From assembly GCF_009914755.1 (NCBI RefSeq), contig NC_060927.1: DNA of 64,000 nt; one strand, 5' to 3'. The notes under the pieces were generated by a model, which searched no databases, was not told the DNA's origin, and worked only from the letters and a program-made list of their open reading frames with translations. Below, in pieces: positions 6,650 to 15,581 of this stretch. The position numbers and the translations under genes were made by a program. The stretch is from the human T2T-CHM13v2.0 reference genome, Homo sapiens. The number at the start of each line of letters is the position of its first letter. Position 1 is the first letter of the stretch.

Positions 6650-7370
6650 CCTACGACAGTCTCCCGCCCCGTTTCTTCACCTCAGTTCTCTAAAGATTGA
6701 AGGTCAAGAGGAGGGTTTCTTGCCCTGGAGCCTGCGATAGGGTGGGCCCTTGCGGTTCTTGGGCGGAAACGGCGATAGGGACACCCAGGGCCTAAGGAGG
6801 CTGGGGACAGAGCAGATCCTCCCAGCCCCCAACATCACCCCGGAGTAGATGCAGACCCCCAGGGTCCCGGAGGCCGAGACCACACCCCGCGGGCACGAGC
6901 CCGATTGGCAGATTGTAGCCGAGTGGTTTCAACGGTGACGCCCCCCACCCGAATGCCTCGCTGGGATTGGCTCATTTCTTGGTTCAGACCTGGACGGTGG
7001 CCAGAGGAGGACAAGAGGCTTTTACACCGAACGGAGGTGATGTGGACGACAACGGAGACGCAGCCGCACTTCACCAAGCGGCCGGTCCGAGGGGACATGG
7101 CGGCAACCTCTGCAGCGTCAGTGCTGCTGGCGGGTGCAAGAAACTGGTGGCGACACTGCCTGAGCCCGCTGCTGTTGCCAAGGTGACGAGGCATAAAGCC
7201 GCGGTGGATCGGTGCGTGGGGGCGCGGAGTGGGTGGTGAAGGGAGAACGAAGCTCGAGCGGAAAGACAGGACCGCGACCGCTTGTCAGGGGATTCGGCTT
7301 CCAGTCCCCCTTCCAGAGGGCGTCCTTCTGCAGCCAGGCCTCTGTCTTCCCCCGCCCCCACACGGTACGA
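6650..7370 (+). promoter_or_regulatory. CpG island promoter of the snoRNA-host transcript
   Basis: Dense CpG/GC. GC box gggcgg at 6761; inverted CCAAT (attgg) at ~6904 and ~6966; YY1-like gacatggcggc at ~7094; donor-like aag|gtgacg at 7182/7183. Confidence 0.85.
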
Positions 7371-7692
7371 GCTACAGAATGCTTTTCTGTTTTCTCTTTT
7401 TCTATAGTAAGGAAGCGCTTTCCTTTCTCCCCCGTTTATTCATTTGCTTACTTCTGGTTCCCGTGTCCTTTTAACATGTCCCCCCGTCATTCTCTGTTTA
7501 AGGACACAAGATGTTCCAGGCTCATCTTGTACTTAGCTCCTGCCTTGGAATCAGACATTTCTCCAAAGAATCCTGGTTCCTTTTTTTGGAGAATGCTATT
7601 TTACAGCCGTATCTGGGCTGTAGGTTGTGTTCGTTGCTACTAGGATGCCATCGCTTCTAGACTGTCTCAGCAGACAACGCTAGGAAATTTTA

Positions 7693-7870
7693 TGTATATA
7701 TATATGTAGAGAGAGAGAGATGCAAACACACATATTTATGTACATATGTGTGTGTATGTACGTATATATACATGTATATTTATATGTATACACACACCCT
7801 CCCCACACACATCCATACATGCATCAATCCAGGCACATCTATATCTGTTTTATATCTATCTATCTACATG
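7693..7870. repeat. (TA)/(TG)/(CA) low-complexity tract within an old L1 end
   Basis: Direct read. Confidence 0.7.
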
Positions 7871-9465
7871 TATGTTTAAAAAACAGCTGAGTTCATACTG
7901 TTAACTCAGTTCCAGTGCAGCATCTCACGGTTCAATCAGATTTGCCCTTTCTGTAATTGTAACTGTTTTCTGAGAGTGAGAAAGCTGGCTCTCCTTATCC
8001 ACAAGATATTCACTTTTTTGCTCAATCGTGTGCAAAAAGTAGATTCAAAATTGCTAACCCATACCACTGTGTAAAAACAGACCAACTAGCCAGAGTTCAA
8101 TATTGGTTTACAGTTATGTTTGTCTTTAGTTTCTGTAATTAAAACTGTATTATACAGGTTATGAAGGCAGTCATAGAGGTTTTATGACTATAGAGGTTAC
8201 AAAGTCTCTATAATTAAGATGTGGAACTAGTGTGTGAATAATATAAAAAGACAAGTAGAATAGAATAGAAAATCCAGAAATAACCCCAAGTGCAGGTAGA
8301 AAGTTAAAGATAAAGGTGCTATCACATATCATTGGAGCAGAGTTGGGCTTTGTAATACACAGAGCTGGGCCAACTGGTTGGCCATTTGGAAAAAGATAAA
8401 ATTAGATCTACACCTTATAGCGTAACAAAAATGAAGTCTAAATGGATCAGGGATCTAAATGTGAAAAATGAAACAATACAAGTACTAAAAGAAAAAGGCT
8501 TTCTAACTATGACTCAAAAAACCATAAGCAATAAAATAAAAAGTTGATAAATTTGACCACATAAAACAAATAGCATGGCAAATACATCATAAAGTCAAAA
8601 GACAACTGAAAAAAAAAACTGGATTGGGAGAAAATATCTGTAGCACGTATCACGGGTAAAGGATGAAGATCTTTCATATTTAAATTTGAATTTTAAAACT
8701 TTTCCAAATCAATTTTCTCTGTTTACATTCAGCAGTGGCAAAGTGACTTTATCTTTTACATAAGAATATGTCAAAAAAGTAGCAAGTTATACTGCTTTTA
8801 AAGATAAGAGTCATCCGTTTAAAAATACTTATTATATCATGTGTCTTAGGGCCCCAAAGGAAACCCTAACACAGGAATTCCTGTGCAAATAATTAGAAAG
8901 TTTCCAGGAAAAAATCACAGGGTAATAGAGAAATAGAATAGAAAGGGAAGGAAGGCCAGTGAGCAAGCTGCTCTAAGCCTGTTCCCCTGGAGGTGGCTCA
9001 GTGCTGCTTAACTCTAAGTCAGTGTGCATGGTCAATTCCTGGAGTCGTCCTTACCAGAGAACCAGCAGGCTGGTGTGTTTATGTCTCTACCGAGTCATTA
9101 GTTAAGGTCTGCCCTCAGGGAGACCTAACTTCCCAGATACTTGGGGTTTTATAAAAATATAAAACATCATACTTAAGACTTAGTATAAAGTTGTCCATTC
9201 AGAACCTTCTTTTTAACTATTGTCCCTGTACGCAGGGAGTTTTTGTTTCAAATTAAACAAAAACTAGGGTTGCAGATATGGTTTATAGGACTGTATCTCA
9301 ACAGACTGACAAACTGAAGCTTTCTTTCTGGGTAGACTGGGATCCATGCCTTTTCTGTTCACTGTTGTCAAGTTTAAATGCAGTGTGCAACATGAAAACC
9401 GCAGTGATGTGTTATTAGTTGGGAATCTTTGTCATTTGGGATATCTGCATGCTATCTGTTTTCAG

Positions 9466-9582
9466 AGCTCACTGCTGTATTAGCTGTGAAGTAAAGCTTG
9501 TTTTAACAAAGCAATAGGCTTCATTAAGATCAAGGCTGTGTATAAGTCATGGTTTCCTACTGGAAAGATAATTATCTTTAAG
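9466..9582 (+). other. Candidate internal exon of the host lncRNA
   Basis: ttttcag| acceptor and aag|gtaaat donor in unique sequence; no transcript evidence available. Confidence 0.3.
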
Positions 9583-9992
9583 GTAAATGATAACCAGTGA
9601 ATACATATCGGAACAACTTCCCTGGAGATGTCAATGCAGAGCTTATTCCCTGTTTATACATCTTAAACACAGAATAATAATGTAGGAAATGTCTATTTTG
9701 ATTTTTCCTAGGCCTTTTTTTAGCCAGTGATATTTAGGATATGGGAGGGAAAATAGCCTAATGAAGCAAGTTGCTACACATGAATATCTAGAGGTGATAC
9801 TAAGACTTTCGAAAAATAGACTTTATTTTATTTTTAAAATGGTTTTAGGTTTCCAGAAAAAAGTTACAGGTTTACAGAGAAGATAGTACAAAGAGTTCCC
9901 ATATACCTTGCACCCTATTATTCCTGTTATTAACATTTTATGTTAGTATGGTAAATTTGTGGTGTAATTATATTATGGTTATTATGATACCA

Positions 9993-10307
9993 TTTTTTTC
10001 TTTTTCTTTTTTCTTTTCTTTCTTTTTTTGAGACGGAGTCTTACTCTGTCACCCAGGCTGGAGTGCAGTGGCATGATCTCAGCTCACTGCAACCTCCACC
10101 TCCCGGGTTCAAGTGATCCTCCTGCCTCAGCCTCCCGAGCACCTGGGACTACAGGCGCACACCATCACACCCAGCTAATTTTTGTATTTTTAGTAGACAG
10201 TGTTTCACCATATTGGCCAGGCTGGTCTCGAACTCCTGACCTCATGATCCACCTGCCTTGGCCTCCCAAAGTGTTGGGATTACAGGTGTAAGCCACCTCG
10301 CCCGACC
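9993..10307 (-). mobile_element. Alu within an old L1 fragment
   Basis: Reverse Alu dimer. Confidence 0.95.
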
Positions 10308-13684: not shown

Positions 13685-13801
13685 GTATGCAGCAGTTGCT
13701 TTTTGAAGCATAAATATACTATCATATCTGAGGTTCTTGTTGCCCAGAAGGAGTCAGGAGTGACAGATAACATGTGACTATTGAAATGCGCTTAATGCAA
13801 C

Positions 13802-14100
13802 TTTTTTTTTTTTTTTTGAGATGGAGTTTTGCTTTTGTTGCCCAGGCTAGAGTGCAGTGGCGCAATCCCGGCTCACTGCGACCTCTGCCTCCTGGGTTCA
13901 AACGATTCTCCTGCCTCAGCCTCCTGAGTAACTGGGATTACAGGTGCCCGCCACTACTCCCGGCTAATTTTTGTATTTTTAGTAGAGACAGGGTTTCACC
14001 ATATTGGCCAGGCCGTTCTCGAACTCCTAACCTTAAGTGATCCACCCGCCTTGGCCTCCCAAAGTGCTGGGATTACAGACATGAGCCACCACGCCCAGCC
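13802..14100 (-). mobile_element. Alu inside a MER33/MER3-like fragment
   Basis: Reverse dimer; flank tttaaatagccatatgtggctagtg. Confidence 0.9.
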
Positions 14101-15031
14101 TATTTCATTTAATTTTAATTAATTTAAATTTAAATAGCCATATGTGGCTAGTGACTATTTATTGGACAGCATAGTCCTAAACAACAGTGAACATTTCAGA
14201 GCTGGCATCTGTAGTTAATTCTGAAAGTGTATCAAAATGGATTCATAACTGTTCCTTTTGTTTTGTGCCTGGTGTTTACTTCTGTCCCAGACTGACATGA
14301 CACCCACTCTTGGCTGGCCCACTTTGGTAGGGGCTTTAATTTTACTACCCTAAACCCAATACTTTCATCTGCTTTATAAGTAATAATGTTCATTTCGCAG
14401 CCAGATGAGCCTTAACTCCGTTTATACTAAATGCAAAAGAAATCTTTTGTTTTTCTCTAGATATTTTGATCAGTATCTTGTATTCCATTTAGAAGCACTC
14501 TACATATAATTCTGGCAAATAAACAGCCACTGATGATTAACTAGTAGCTCAGATTGTTCAGTGGTTCACGTAGTACTTGCTGAATAATATTCTGATTCAT
14601 ATGTTTTCTTTTGTTCAGAACTGGCAGTCGGGGTCAACTTGGGAAGACAGCTGTGACCATAAATATTAAAGAAGACAAAAGGATTCTTTGTGACACTGAG
14701 ACCTTCTGCAGTACCACAGTGGAGGAAATGCCAGTGTACACAACTGGCCTCATTTAATTCCTGGGAGGAGATAGTTTGGGATGCAGTGCTTGTTGTTGCT
14801 GAGCAGGCGATCACAGCATGCACTGTGTTTCTTTCTTTGAGAATATTTGAATCCTGCCTGAATACTCGTAACAGATGAGAGACGCAGGTTTTGATAGCAT
14901 AGATTTACGCTGTCATTAGTCATGAGCTCTTGGGACGAAAGTAATTGGTTTTATCCTCTTTAGAGTTAGACCCTGTGGTTGGGTATGAAAGATGAGTGTC
15001 TGTAAAAATCCTTCTTAGAAATGTATTTCCT

Positions 15032-15058
15032 CAAGACTCTGTCTCAAAAAAAAAAAAA
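15032..15058 (+). mobile_element. Extremely 5'-truncated Alu (14 nt plus poly-A)
   Basis: caagactctgtctc + A run between 15-bp TSDs agaaat(g/t)tatttcct (15017-15031, 15059-15073). Confidence 0.85.
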
Positions 15059-15401
15059 AGAAATTTATTTCCTAGTTCTGTAAAAATCGCTATATTGAGT
15101 GTTCTCTATCACTTAATAATATACTTATTATTAAGTGGACTTAAAGATATGCAGTGTATAAAATCAGCTAATTACGTTAAACCATGGTATCTCCCTTTAT
15201 TGTGTTAGACTGAATAGAACAAACTTTAAAATAATTTTTTAAAGAATATATTTGAATTCATTTTGTTTGATAATATGTTTTTATTCAGAAAAGCATTTTA
15301 TTAGCGCTAGGTGTGAACCCGAGCCTTTTGCTAAATACCAGCAGCAATCATGTCCTAGAGTTAAATCCCAGAAAAATTGCCATATTATATATTAAAGGTT
15401 C

Positions 15402-15417
15402 AATAAATTACAATAAA
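15402..15417 (+). terminator. Tandem polyadenylation signals
   Basis: aataaa at 15402-15407 and 15412-15417, at the end of the EIF4A2-like UTR. Confidence 0.7.
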
Positions 15418-15581
15418 GTATTTTTTCTTTAAAGTGATTTGGTCCTTATTCCTTAAAAATCATACTTTTTGCCATAACTCCATATTTGCAAAGGAAGAAG
15501 ATGAAATGAAATAGTACTCTATAGTAAATATTTTATTCCAGTTACAAAATTACATACAAATGTGGCTTTTTATAAAAAGGT

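What the first reader, a model, noticed from the sequence alone, without database searches (positions are those of the whole stretch)
7030..15435. snoRNA-host lncRNA is a fossil, intron-retaining copy of EIF4A2
Seen: five exon remnants in EIF4A2 order, with frameshifts and stops. They include an intact VLDEAD codon run (11162-11179), motif III changed SAT->SAS, a destroyed motif VI (IGRGGRFGR->TGSRGQLGK) and a long EIF4A2-like 3' UTR. Four H/ACA snoRNA homologs lie between them. Known: EIF4A2 introns host SNORA63-family, SNORA81/MIR1248, SNORA63 and SNORA4 in this order. Inference: a genomic duplicate lost the helicase and was kept as a snoRNA-delivery transcript, a direct coding-gene-to-SNHG transition. 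The ORF track does not show it. The lncRNA and snoRNAs are probably annotated; the EIF4A2 ancestry may not be.
Basis: partly seen in the sequence, partly recalled or inferred. Interest (0 to 1): 0.85.

Follow-up and report, generated by a model that had tools for sequence, protein, structure and literature searches.

The report
SNHG33: MCCC1–EIF4A2 chimeric gene fossil
The human snoRNA host lncRNA SNHG33 is an old patchwork of two gene fragments, a copy of the MCCC1 promoter and first exon joined to a decayed, intron-containing copy of the back half of EIF4A2, and it shows one concrete way a non-coding snoRNA host gene can arise.

Summary
Window 9173-16176 is collinear with EIF4A2 from intron 4 to about 300 nt past its poly(A) site. 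It holds decayed remnants of exons 6, 7, 8, 9 and 11, the 3'UTR and non-snoRNA intron sequence. It also holds paralogs of SNORA63B, SNORA81, SNORA63 and SNORA4 in the parental order.

All 5 exon remnants are closer to EIF4A2 than to EIF4A1, and the shared intron sequence rules out a retrocopy.

The interpretation needs two corrections. First, the copy is partial. Exons 1-5 and 10 have no detectable remnant, and homology starts abruptly in intron 4. The SNHG33 promoter and exon 1 (core 6961-7244) instead derive from MCCC1, 0.35 Mb away on the opposite strand. This includes the MCCC1 start codon, its presequence codons and its splice donor. SNHG33 is therefore a chimera that probably never encoded a helicase.

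Second, only SNORA63E and, more weakly, SNORA63D remain plausible snoRNAs. The SNORA81 copy is split by an Alu, and the SNORA4 copy has lost its ACA box. Polarised substitutions show no detectable constraint on SNORA63E, so "kept for snoRNA delivery" is plausible but unproven.

My literature searches found no statement of either ancestry.

The parts
6844..7405 (+). Block derived from the MCCC1 5' end: CpG-island promoter, exon 1 and the start of intron 1. The core is 6961-7244.
   Evidence: blastn against the minus strand of L021 (T2T chr3:185905490-185905775) gave 63.5% over 296 columns. The core has z 25-28 against dinucleotide shuffles, with weaker collinear extensions at 6844-6919 (z 6.0) and 7259-7405 (z 5.4). 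GC is 0.63 and CpG o/e 0.81. Against the EIF4A2 5' end z is 0.5.
7025..7182 (+). SNHG33 exon 1. ATG 7097-7099 is homologous to the MCCC1 start codon, and the donor AG|GT falls at the homologous place and phase.
   Evidence: The L021 exon-1 peptide equals MCCC1 residues 1-29 of PDB 8j4z_E at 100%. The window peptide 7097-7180 matches it at 19/29, E 3e-7. The ORF part is 73% identical at nucleotide level.
9173..9710 (+). Start of the EIF4A2-derived block: copy of a conserved element in EIF4A2 intron 4.
   Evidence: 71.8% over 383 columns and 70.3% ungapped over 488 nt. Genome-wide it occurs only at these two loci, 2 of 2 matches. Alignment. No similarity lies to the left of 9173.
11145..11249 (+). 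EIF4A2 exon 6 remnant (VLDEAD at 11162-11179). Not used by SNHG33.
   Evidence: 102/137 columns identical with flanks; indels of -2, -4 and +1; a stop lies 8 codons after DEAD; the donor changed from CAG|GTAAGC to CAT|GTGTGC.
11278..11409 (+). SNORA63D, positional partner of SNORA63B in EIF4A2 intron 6.
   Evidence: Rfam 82.9 bits, below the gathering score of 90, with about 6 non-canonical pairs. H (AAAGCA) and ACA boxes are kept. It lies in the collinear HSP 11131-11453 to L005 5180-5518. RNAfold z is -0.31. The guide pairs 13/16 with the 28S site.
11499..11775 (+). Antisense Alu that supplies the acceptor and 5' part of SNHG33 exon 2 (Alu exonisation).
   Evidence: Metazoa_SRP-like hits on the minus strand at 11497-11639 and 11658-11774. 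The acceptor is ttttttttttttcag|AGTCTC.
11797..11933 (+). EIF4A2 exon 7 remnant (SAS at 11809-11817). It forms the 3' part of SNHG33 exon 2, and the ancestral donor is reused.
   Evidence: 136/172 columns identical with flanks; indels of -4, -2 and -1; donor AG|GTAATG against AG|GTAACT in EIF4A2.
11988..12479 (+). SNORA81 pseudogene split by an antisense Alu (about 12117-12415). Target-site duplication CTGAGTTGAACCT at 12104-12116 and 12416-12428.
   Evidence: HSPs 11780-12123 to L005 5516-5841 and 12416-12493 to 5822-5900. With the Alu skipped, 143/195 columns match SNORA81. The Rfam alignment of the 3' hairpin runs into the Alu with low posterior.
12612..12728 (+). EIF4A2 exon 8 remnant, skipped by SNHG33. 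The donor GT is mutated to AT.
   Evidence: 98/162 columns identical with flanks; local score 26.5 against a null maximum of 16.5.
12782..13222 (+). Interspersed repeat of about 440 nt, inserted after the duplication and absent from EIF4A2.
   Evidence: The first look gave 3334 genomic candidates. Of 40 scored, the 39 other copies are 76-79% identical. EIF4A2 has only 18 nt between the flanking anchors.
13235..13365 (+). SNORA63E, positional partner of SNORA63 (E3) in EIF4A2 intron 8.
   Evidence: Rfam 104 bits (gathering score 90), 1 non-canonical pair, H and ACA boxes kept. 79% identical to SNORA63. The guide pairs 15/16 with the 28S site that SNORA63 pairs at 16/16. RNAfold z is -0.96.
13433..13514 (+). 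EIF4A2 exon 9 remnant, equal to SNHG33 exon 3. The ancestral acceptor and donor are both reused.
   Evidence: 76/114 columns identical with flanks. The donor TTG|GTAAGT is identical to EIF4A2's.
13553..13683 (+). SNORA4 pseudogene, not in the annotation table supplied with the finding.
   Evidence: Rfam 53.1 bits, below the gathering score of 56. About 9 broken pairs in the 5' hairpin, and ACA changed to AGA. 63% identical to SNORA4.
14173..14618 (+). Copy of the 3' part of EIF4A2 intron 10.
   Evidence: 74.8% ungapped over 442 nt. Part of HSP 14173-15447 to L005 7713-8943.
14619..15433 (+). EIF4A2 exon 11 remnant, equal to SNHG33 exon 4: CDS remnant to TAA at 14755-14757, then the 3'UTR with the inherited poly(A) signal and site.
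   Evidence: CDS part 128/169 columns identical with flanks, with an in-frame 6-nt deletion. 3'UTR 78% over 644 nt. AATAAA and the cleavage region are aligned.
15919..16176 (+). Copy of the sequence just downstream of the EIF4A2 poly(A) site. This is the end of the duplicated block.
   Evidence: 66.7% over 264 columns to L005 9001-9245. No unique homology lies beyond it.

Best explanation
SNHG33 is an old chimeric duplicate built at the DNA level from two gene fragments that lie on the same chromosome arm.

Shown:
- A copy of the MCCC1 CpG-island promoter and exon 1, with its donor site, lies about 1.8 kb upstream of a copy of EIF4A2. The parent MCCC1 is 0.35 Mb away on the opposite strand.
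- The EIF4A2 copy runs from intron 4 to about 300 nt past the poly(A) site. The parent EIF4A2 is 3.35 Mb away on the same strand.

How it works today (inferred from the supplied RefSeq exon table plus homology):
- The MCCC1-derived promoter drives transcription.
- The transcript is spliced from the MCCC1-derived donor into an exonised Alu.
- It then uses inherited EIF4A2 signals: the exon 7 donor, the exon 9 acceptor and donor, the exon 11 acceptor and the poly(A) signal.
- SNORA63D and SNORA63E lie in the excised introns.
- SNORA63E keeps an almost complete guide for the 28S site served by SNORA63.
- The SNORA81 and SNORA4 copies are dead.

Origin and age (inferred):
- The MCCC1 donor is phase 2, while EIF4A2 exons 5, 6 and 7 accept in phases 0, 1 and 0. 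The fusion could therefore never have read the helicase frame, so it was most likely non-coding from birth.
- Divergence puts the age at roughly 100-170 million years. This rests on recalled substitution rates and is rough.

Whether the locus is maintained by selection for SNORA63E/D is open. I put that at about 0.45.
For: EIF4A2 part:
- Eight collinear plus-strand HSPs run from window 9173-16176 to L005 4203-9245.
- They include non-snoRNA intron sequence: the intron 4 element, 442 nt of intron 10 and the downstream flank.
- 5 of 11 exons are found, in order.
- All 5 score higher against EIF4A2 than against EIF4A1, and EIF4A1 shows no intron or UTR match.
- The snoRNA order matches.
- The intron-4 element has only these 2 genomic copies.

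MCCC1 part:
- Genome search of window 6800-7400 gave 2 matches: itself and chr3:185905542-185905659 on the minus strand.
- blastn gave 63.5% over 296 columns.
- z is 25-28 against dinucleotide shuffles, compared with 0.5 against the EIF4A2 5' end.
- The parental peptide equals MCCC1 residues 1-29.
- The window peptide matches at 19/29, E 3e-7.

Processing:
- All 4 reused ancestral splice sites keep canonical dinucleotides, and the poly(A) signal aligns.

Guide:
- Position 4411 of the chr13 28S copy is the best site in the whole 28S for SNORA63 (16/16 pairs), SNORA63E (15/16) and SNORA63D (13/16). The 3' guide strand sits 14 nt before ACA in all five copies.
- Passages of PMC7072173 give 28S U4390 as the SNORA63 target.
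- Passages of PMC13185288 report SNORA63D counts in macrophage small-RNA data.
Against: - No other genome could be searched, so the age, and whether the two fragments arrived together, are not shown.
- 1.77 kb (7405-9173) separates the two fragments. 8700-9172 is unique and of unknown origin, so two separate events remain possible.
- A full-length EIF4A2 copy whose 5' part was later deleted cannot be excluded.
- On function, changes on the SNORA63E branch, polarised with SNORA63D and SNORA63B, are as frequent in boxes, stems and guides (8/68) as elsewhere (6/63; Fisher p 0.78). The parental SNORA63 branch shows depletion (1/68 against 8/63; p 0.014).
- SNORA63E and SNORA63D do not fold better than shuffles (z -0.96 and -0.31, against -4.9 for SNORA63).
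- SNORA63D is below Rfam's gathering score.
- The window exon-1 peptide found nothing in the PDB by itself.
Confidence: 0.8

Rival explanations
1. First reader's model. A complete genomic duplicate of EIF4A2, with its own promoter, lost the helicase reading frame and was kept by selection as a snoRNA-delivery transcript.
For: Collinear exon-intron homology and four snoRNA paralogs. The SNORA63E boxes and guide are largely kept.
Against: No remnant of exons 1-5 was found (0 of 5 above the null). SNORD2 is absent from window 6000-17000 at E up to 1. The homology edge in intron 4 is sharp. The promoter and exon 1 are MCCC1-like, not EIF4A2-like. 2 of the 4 snoRNA copies are dead. No constraint signal is seen on SNORA63E.
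Confidence: 0.1
2. Neutral relic. The locus is a transcribed unprocessed pseudogene chimera with no selected function. A surviving CpG-island promoter and surviving splice signals still yield a spliced RNA, and SNORA63D and SNORA63E are decaying by-products.
For: Divergence of SNORA63E (K 0.24) and SNORA63D (K 0.29) equals that of the dead exons 6, 7 and 11 and the 3'UTR (K 0.18-0.26). E-branch changes are not depleted in key elements. Folding z-scores are not significant. The SNORA81 and SNORA4 copies are already destroyed. The present exon 2 depends on an Alu; that Alus are primate-specific is recalled.
Against: A CpG island with o/e 0.81 has persisted. 4 of 4 reused splice sites and the poly(A) signal are intact. 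The 10-nt 3' guide strand is unchanged in SNORA63D and changed only to G.U wobbles in SNORA63E. Both snoRNAs are curated RefSeq genes in the supplied annotation. A preprint reports a knockout viability effect for a LINC00888 ORF (passages). Each of these is weak or subject to survivor bias.
Confidence: 0.45
3. Retrocopy of EIF4A2 or EIF4A1 into which the snoRNAs inserted independently.
For: The genome holds many processed eIF4A copies. The exon-7 peptide search returned 27 matches in all, and many are open across exon borders.
Against: Intron sequence is shared outside the snoRNAs: 488 nt of intron 4, 442 nt of intron 10 and flanks. The snoRNAs lie in the homologous introns in the same order. 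Exon borders with splice sites are kept. EIF4A1 matches only 3 coding exons and at lower scores.
Confidence: 0.01

Closest known systems
EIF4A2 (parent locus, T2T chr3:189.605-189.612 Mb), host of SNORD2, SNORA63B, SNORA81, SNORA63 and SNORA4
   Same: Same order and orientation of exons 6-9 and 11, the introns, four H/ACA snoRNAs, the 3'UTR, the poly(A) signal and the downstream flank. Three SNHG33 exons use the homologous splice sites.
   Different: SNHG33 lacks exons 1-5 and 10 and lacks SNORD2. All remnants except exon 11 are frameshifted. Post-duplication insertions include five Alus, a 440-nt repeat and further interspersed repeats. Ungapped identity is 64-84% for exons, snoRNAs and the 3'UTR, and lower in the least conserved intron stretches.
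MCCC1 5' end (T2T chr3:185.9055-185.9058 Mb, minus strand)
   Same: CpG-island promoter, start codon, presequence codons (19/29 residues) and the phase-2 donor site are all homologous.
   Different: Only about 0.3-0.56 kb is copied. It is inverted relative to the parent. No further MCCC1 exon was found within the 3.5 kb of intron 1 that I examined.
Non-coding snoRNA host genes such as GAS5 and SNHG1 (recalled, not tested here)
   Same: A spliced, polyadenylated RNA whose introns carry snoRNAs. A short ORF ends more than 50 nt before the last junction, which predicts NMD sensitivity (inference).
   Different: Here the host's descent from two identifiable coding genes can still be read. Half of the hosted snoRNAs are dead.
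lncRNAs that are fossils of lost protein-coding genes (Hezroni et al. 2017, PMC5577775; abstract and term searches seen)
   Same: A lncRNA that retains sequence of coding ancestry.
   Different: Those cases are unitary losses at the ancestral locus. Here both parents survive intact, and the lncRNA is a duplicated, chimeric fragment. LINC00888, EIF4A2 (as a locus) and MCCC1 are absent from that paper's text and from its 4 supplements held here.
SNORA63 / E3 H/ACA snoRNA family (Rfam RF00092)
   Same: SNORA63E passes the gathering score. It keeps the H and ACA boxes, both hairpins and 15/16 guide pairs.
   Different: The 5'-hairpin pocket strands differ. One upper-stem pair and one guide pair are broken. 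There is no signal of constraint on its branch.

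Membership tests
Unprocessed (DNA-duplicated) pseudogene of EIF4A2 | Collinear exons with homologous introns | tested here: met
   Eight collinear HSPs. Intron 4, intron 10 and the flank are homologous outside the snoRNAs.
Unprocessed (DNA-duplicated) pseudogene of EIF4A2 | Closer to EIF4A2 than to its paralog EIF4A1 | tested here: met
   5 of 5 exon remnants score higher against EIF4A2: 60.5/30, 86/50.5, 21.5/9, 35/20.5 and 72/42.5.
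Unprocessed (DNA-duplicated) pseudogene of EIF4A2 | Disabled reading frame | tested here: met
   Frameshifting indels in exons 6, 7, 8 and 9. A stop lies 8 codons after DEAD.
Unprocessed (DNA-duplicated) pseudogene of EIF4A2 | Covers the whole parent gene | tested here: not met
   Exons 1-5 and 10 are not above the shuffles. The block starts at L005 4203 in intron 4.
Processed pseudogene / retrocopy | Intronless copy of the mRNA | tested here: not met
   Introns with homologous sequence and snoRNAs are present.
Chimeric (fusion) gene duplicate | Segments from two different parent genes in one transcription unit | tested here: met
   MCCC1 5' block at 6844-7405 and EIF4A2 block at 9173-16176. 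The supplied RefSeq exon table joins exon 1 (MCCC1-derived) to exons 2-4 (EIF4A2-derived).
Non-coding snoRNA host gene | Spliced transcript whose introns contain snoRNA genes | tested here: met
   The annotated exons have canonical splice sites. SNORA63D lies in intron 1 and SNORA63E in intron 2. RNA-seq junctions themselves were not examined.
Non-coding snoRNA host gene | Hosted snoRNAs are produced and functional | not testable with these tools
   The only support is curated RefSeq entries in the supplied table and passages reporting SNORA63D counts. No RNP-binding or pseudouridine data are available.
SNORA63 family (RF00092), SNORA63E | Rfam gathering score, H box, ACA box, two hairpins | tested here: met
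   104 bits against a gathering score of 90; AAAAUA and ACA present; 1 non-canonical pair.
SNORA63 family (RF00092), SNORA63D | Rfam gathering score, H box, ACA box, two hairpins | tested here: inconclusive
   82.9 bits, below 90. The boxes are present, but about 6 pairs are broken and the 5' guide strand is lost (13/16 pairs).
SNORA81 (RF01241), window copy | Contiguous two-hairpin H/ACA RNA with a 3' box | tested here: not met
   An Alu with a 13-nt target-site duplication splits the 3' hairpin.
SNORA4 (RF00394), window copy | Gathering score and ACA box | tested here: not met
   53.1 bits, below 56. ACA is changed to AGA and the outer stems of the 5' hairpin are broken.

The most novel reading that the evidence does not exclude
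The locus may be the scar of one ancient 3q27 rearrangement, by template switching or a duplicative inversion. That event would have fused a copy of the MCCC1 promoter and exon 1 to the back half of EIF4A2 and created a transcript that was non-coding from birth. It would have been retained because it puts an extra E3/SNORA63-type guide for the same 28S pseudouridine under a different, MCCC1-type promoter. Its 119-codon ORF begins with a fossil MCCC1 mitochondrial presequence and ends in an Alu. That ORF may be the translated LINC00888 microprotein whose knockout reduced medulloblastoma cell viability.
Probability: 0.2. Interest if true: 0.65.

Novelty: new member of a known kind. Interest (0 to 1): 0.45.

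Why it matters
How non-coding snoRNA host genes arise is mostly unknown, because their exons evolve quickly. In SNHG33 the history is still legible. A promoter-less fragment of a coding host gene carried its intronic snoRNAs with it. It gained a promoter, a first exon and a donor site from a second gene. It still uses the parent's splice and poly(A) signals.

This gives a concrete, testable route (fragment duplication plus promoter capture) that differs from in-place loss of a coding gene.

It also has practical consequences:
- It corrects the annotation. The RefSeq SNORA81 model runs into an Alu, and a SNORA4 pseudogene is not in the supplied annotation table.
- It predicts that SNORA63E targets the same 28S site as SNORA63.
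- It explains why cancer studies see SNORA63/EIF4A2 and SNORA63E/LINC00888 as similar co-amplified pairs.
- It gives the N-terminus of the longest ORF in the spliced transcript an identifiable origin.

Tried and rejected
- EIF4A2 origin of SNHG33 exon 1 and promoter: rejected. Local score was 13.0 against a null of 12.3 +/- 1.4. Exons 1 and 2 were not found.
- Remnants of EIF4A2 exons 1-5 and 10: none above the shuffles. The semi-global try for exon 10 gave only 9/16 columns.
- A second MCCC1 HSP upstream (6077-6401): not counted. Most of its score comes from a repeat at about 6095-6195. Without that stretch z is 2.4-4.7.
- PDB search with the window exon-1 peptide: no hit at E up to 10.
- PDB search with window:14619-14756: failed because my frame was wrong. 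I did not repeat it and used the nucleotide alignment instead.
- Guide prediction from the 5'-hairpin pocket of SNORA63: inconclusive, with no clear best 28S site. The 3' domain gave the clear answer.
- Grouping SNORA63D with SNORA63B by pairwise identity: weak (73% in the 5' hairpin, 69% in the 3' half). Their positional partnership rests on the flanking chain and on shared indels.
- Test for constraint on SNORA63E: no signal.
- Literature:
  - 41 papers hold SNHG33, LINC00888, SNORA63D or SNORA63E. 25 were listed, and SNHG33 itself occurs in none of those 25.
  - 1 paper holds both LINC00888 and EIF4A2. None of its 6 passages states a paralogy.
  - 0 papers.
  - 63 papers, 15 listed.
  - 1 paper, seen as a listing only.
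  - the Hezroni 2017 text and its 4 supplements have no LINC00888 or MCCC1.
  - the shown passages of PMC10324135 (12 of 20 places) name only EIF4A1 and EIF4A3 as EIF4A2 paralogs.
- No vertebrate genome other than this one is held, so orthologs could not be traced.

Full report
**1. What was checked.** The window is T2T chr3:186248001-186312000, and the whole genome could be searched. I fetched:
- the EIF4A2 locus as L005 (chr3:189603001-189613000), with 10 kb on each side;
- the EIF4A1 locus as L020;
- later, the MCCC1 5' region as L021 and a 28S rDNA copy as L022.

- VLDEAD codons lie at 11162-11179.
- SAS replaces SAT at 11809-11817.
- The exon-11 remnant reads TGSRGQLGK... and ends at a TAA (14755-14757) homologous to the EIF4A2 stop.

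I defined the 11 EIF4A2 coding exons in L005 from the open frames and splice sites. The spliced CDS gives 407 residues plus stop. Each exon was aligned locally to window 6001-17000 with 30 shuffles. Five of 11 stand out, namely exons 6, 7, 8, 9 and 11. Six of 11 (exons 1-5 and 10) are indistinguishable from shuffles.

Identity with flanks is 74.5%, 79.1%, 60.5%, 66.7% and 75.7% for exons 6, 7, 8, 9 and 11. Exons 6-9 carry frameshifting indels. Exon 11 has only an in-frame 6-nt deletion.

Rfam finds SNORA63, SNORA81, SNORA63 and SNORA4 homologs between the remnants. It finds the same families in the same order in EIF4A2, after SNORD2.

**3. It is a genomic copy of EIF4A2.** It is neither a retrocopy nor a copy of EIF4A1.
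- Sensitive blastn gives a single collinear plus-strand chain from window 9173-16176 to L005 4203-9245.
- The chain includes sequence that is neither exon nor snoRNA: 488 nt of intron 4 (70% identity), 442 nt of intron 10 (75%) and 245 nt beyond the poly(A) site (69%).
- The intron-4 element occurs nowhere else in the genome (2 of 2 matches are these two loci).
- Against EIF4A1 only three coding exons match, at 65-69%. Every one of the 5 remnants scores higher against EIF4A2.
- In a genome-wide search with the exon-7 peptide, the window copy is match 17 of 27 (63% identity, E 1e-3). Of the 12 other matches that cover at least 42 of the 48 residues, 11 lie at 79-96% identity and EIF4A1 itself is one at 96%; many are open across exon borders, as processed copies would be. 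The window copy is therefore older than those.

**4. Insertions and losses since the duplication.**
- Alus lie at about 10009-10314, 10653-10966, 11497-11775, 12117-12415, 13792-14154 and 15593-15927 (and the masked intervals supplied with the finding).
- A 440-nt interspersed repeat lies at 12782-13222.
- Other interspersed repeats lie around 7490-7700 and 9800-9970.
- The stretch that should hold exon 5 (between 9710 and 11131) consists of such insertions.
- Exon 10 and the first 800 nt of intron 10 are missing next to the Alu at 13792.

**5. The copy is partial and its 5' end comes from another gene.** Homology to EIF4A2 stops abruptly at window 9173, about 70 nt into intron 4. SNHG33 exon 1 and its promoter show no similarity to the EIF4A2 5' region (z 0.5).

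A genome search with window 6800-7400 returned one other place, chr3:185905542-185905659 on the minus strand.
- Alignment to that region extends over window 6961-7244 (63.5% of 296 columns). z is 25-28 against dinucleotide shuffles. Weaker collinear extensions reach 6844 and 7405.
- The parental sequence there encodes a peptide identical to residues 1-29 of methylcrotonoyl-CoA carboxylase subunit alpha, MCCC1 (PDB 8j4z_E).
- The window keeps the homologous ATG (7097), 19 of 29 residues (E 3e-7) and the AG|GT donor at the same place and phase. That donor is the one SNHG33 exon 1 uses.
- Both segments are CpG islands (o/e 0.81 and 0.76).

So SNHG33 is a chimera. The MCCC1 promoter and exon 1 are inverted relative to their parent 0.35 Mb away. 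They are followed after 1.8 kb by EIF4A2 intron 4 through the 3' flank, in the same orientation as the parent 3.35 Mb away.

The 1.8 kb between the two pieces contains an old high-copy repeat and a unique stretch of unknown origin at 8700-9172.

**6. How the transcript is made (inference from the supplied exon table plus homology).**
- Exon 1 is MCCC1-derived.
- Exon 2 starts at the classical acceptor of an antisense Alu and ends at the inherited EIF4A2 exon-7 donor.
- Exon 3 is the exon-9 remnant, with both inherited splice sites. Its donor is 9/9 identical to EIF4A2's.
- Exon 4 is the exon-11 remnant plus the 3'UTR, ending at the inherited AATAAA and cleavage region.
- The exon-8 remnant is skipped, and its donor GT has become AT.
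- The exon-6 remnant is not used, and its donor is weakened.

MCCC1 intron 1 is phase 2. EIF4A2 exons 5, 6 and 7 are entered in phases 0, 1 and 0, as read. A fusion transcript therefore could not have read the helicase frame from the MCCC1 start. This makes "non-coding from birth" more likely than "coding gene that decayed". It remains an inference.

The spliced RNA has a 119-codon ORF. It runs from ATG 7040, which is in frame with the MCCC1-like ATG 7097, to a stop at 11713 inside the Alu. That stop is 220 nt before the next junction, which predicts NMD sensitivity.

**7. State of the four snoRNA copies.**
- **SNORA63E (13235-13365).**
  - 104 bits, above the gathering score, with one non-canonical pair and both boxes kept.
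- **SNORA63D (11278-11409).**
  - 82.9 bits, below the gathering score. The boxes are kept, but about six pairs are broken.
- **SNORA81 copy.**
  - Split in its 3' hairpin by an Alu flanked by a 13-nt target-site duplication.
  - With the Alu skipped it aligns to the whole of SNORA81 (143/195).
  - The RefSeq model LOC124900564 (11988-12153) therefore ends inside the Alu.
- **SNORA4 copy.**
  - 53.1 bits, below the gathering score, with its ACA changed to AGA and its 5' hairpin broken.
- **Folding energies relative to shuffles**.
  - z is -4.9 for SNORA63, -0.96 for SNORA63E and -0.31 for SNORA63D.
  - z is -2.2 for SNORA4 and -0.84 for its copy.
- **Positional partnership.**
  - SNORA63D pairs with SNORA63B, and SNORA63E pairs with SNORA63.
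  - This rests on the flanking chain and on shared indels and H-box type.
  - The two-copy arrangement inside EIF4A2 therefore predates the locus duplication.

**8. Guide test.** I scanned a 28S copy for bipartite complementarity.
- The 3' domain of SNORA63 has a 10-nt strand that starts 14 nt before ACA, plus a 6-nt strand in the hairpin. It pairs 16/16 around a U at position 4411 of that copy. The next best site in the whole 28S reaches 12.
- The same site is the best for SNORA63E (15/16, where two C-to-U changes give G.U pairs and one A.C mismatch remains) and for SNORA63D (13/16, with the 3' strand identical and the 5' strand lost).
- Passages of PMC7072173 list 28S U4390 as the SNORA63 target and "unknown" for SNORA63E.
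- That 4411 equals U4390 rests on an offset I recalled.
- The tables of PMC2653536 also assign the chicken E3 site to the 3' pocket, and they list EIF4A2 introns 3, 8 and 9 as snoRNA hosts.

**9. Is it kept by selection?** The evidence is mixed.
- For:
  - the CpG island persists;
  - 4 of 4 reused splice sites and the poly(A) signal are intact;
  - the boxes and the guide strand survive;
  - SNORA63D and SNORA63E have curated RefSeq status in the supplied annotation table;
  - SNORA63D is detected in small-RNA data (passages).
- Against:
  - SNORA63E and SNORA63D are as diverged from their parents (K 0.24 and 0.29) as the dead exons 6, 7 and 11 and the 3'UTR (K 0.18-0.26).
  - Polarising the SNORA63/SNORA63E differences with SNORA63D and SNORA63B gives 8/68 changes in boxes, stems and guides on the E branch, against 6/63 elsewhere (p 0.78).
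  - The parental SNORA63 branch shows the expected depletion (1/68 against 8/63; p 0.014). Nine differences could not be polarised.
- I therefore leave "maintained as a SNORA63E/D host" at about 0.45 and "expressed neutral relic" at about 0.45.

**10. Age (rough).**
- Features that are strongly conserved on the EIF4A2 side mostly record the SNHG33 branch, at K 0.18-0.30. Less conserved intron stretches give 0.4-0.9 for both branches together.
- The 440-nt repeat that inserted later is 76-79% identical to its genomic copies, or about 0.13 per copy. The duplication is therefore clearly older than that insertion.
- With recalled human-lineage rates of 1.5-2.2e-9 per site per year, this points to roughly 100-170 million years.
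- A soft upper bound exists. The block already contains SNORA63B and SNORA81 copies, whereas the chicken tables seen list EIF4A2 snoRNAs only in introns 3, 8 and 9.
- The MCCC1 core has K 0.49 across both branches in CpG-rich sequence. This is compatible with a similar age but does not show it.

**11. Comparison with what is known, and novelty.** The kinds are known: unprocessed pseudogenes, chimeric duplicates, pseudogene-derived lncRNAs and non-coding snoRNA hosts. What I could not find in print is this locus's ancestry.
- Among 41 papers naming LINC00888, SNHG33, SNORA63D or SNORA63E, only one also names EIF4A2. It treats the two host/snoRNA pairs as separate co-amplified 3q27 genes.
- Hezroni et al. 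2017 does not list the locus in its text or in the 4 supplements held.
- A detailed 2023 study of EIF4A2 and its snoRNAs names only EIF4A1 and EIF4A3 as paralogs in the passages shown.
- MCCC1, EIF4A2 and pseudogene together gave one unrelated copy-number paper, seen as a listing only.
- Genome-browser self-alignments or GENCODE pseudogene tracks may already show it. I could not consult them.

**12. Side observation.** A preprint reports that an ORF in LINC00888 is translated and that its knockout lowers medulloblastoma cell viability (passages). I therefore cannot say whether it is the MCCC1-presequence-plus-Alu ORF described above.

**13. Verdict.** The EIF4A2 ancestry is right, but the copy is partial. 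The 5' exon and promoter are MCCC1-derived. The selective-retention claim is unproven. I rate it a new member of a known kind, of moderate interest.

Noticed in passing
window 11988-12153 (RefSeq LOC124900564): The predicted SNORA81 gene model ends inside an antisense Alu. The true 3' part of the SNORA81 copy lies about 300 nt further on, after the target-site duplication at 12416-12428. The model is most likely a disrupted pseudogene.
   Followed up: yes
window 13553-13683: A SNORA4 pseudogene that is not in the supplied annotation table: 53.1 bits (gathering score 56), ACA changed to AGA, 5' hairpin broken.
   Followed up: yes
window 9173-9710 and L005 4203-4690: A conserved element in EIF4A2 intron 4, found genome-wide only at these two loci. 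Two sub-blocks are 36/40 and 35/40 identical (around 9368-9410 and 9458-9500). It matches no Rfam family at E up to 1. It lies just downstream of the regulated cassette exon 4 described in PMC10324135. Its function is unknown.
   Followed up: partly
window 7040-7182 spliced to 11499-11715: The longest ORF of the spliced lncRNA has 119 codons. It starts upstream of, and in frame with, the fossil MCCC1 start codon and presequence, and it ends in the exonised Alu. A preprint reports a translated, viability-relevant LINC00888 ORF. I could not check whether it is the same ORF.
   Followed up: partly
window 11278-11409 and 13235-13365: SNORA63D and SNORA63E share states in the 5' hairpin that SNORA63 and SNORA63B lack: an extra G giving UUGCCCCC, a GUGAAG loop, and CUCAAA before the H box (the chr1 copy also has CUCAAA). 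This could reflect gene conversion between the two window copies or a shared ancestral state.
   Followed up: no
L003 (G000:C1:36281307-36281436, minus strand): A further SNORA63 copy on chromosome 1 is 92-94% identical to SNORA63. It has 10/10 and 6/6 guide pairs for the same 28S site and is much younger than the window copies.
   Followed up: partly
window 8700-9172: A unique sequence with no other match in the genome lies between the MCCC1-derived and EIF4A2-derived blocks. It matches neither parent region that I fetched, and its origin is unknown.
   Followed up: partly
L005 7713-8154 (EIF4A2 intron 10, 3' part) and window 14173-14618: This intron stretch is as similar between the two loci (75%) as the coding exons. 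That suggests strong constraint on the EIF4A2 side, possibly linked to its alternative splicing.
   Followed up: no
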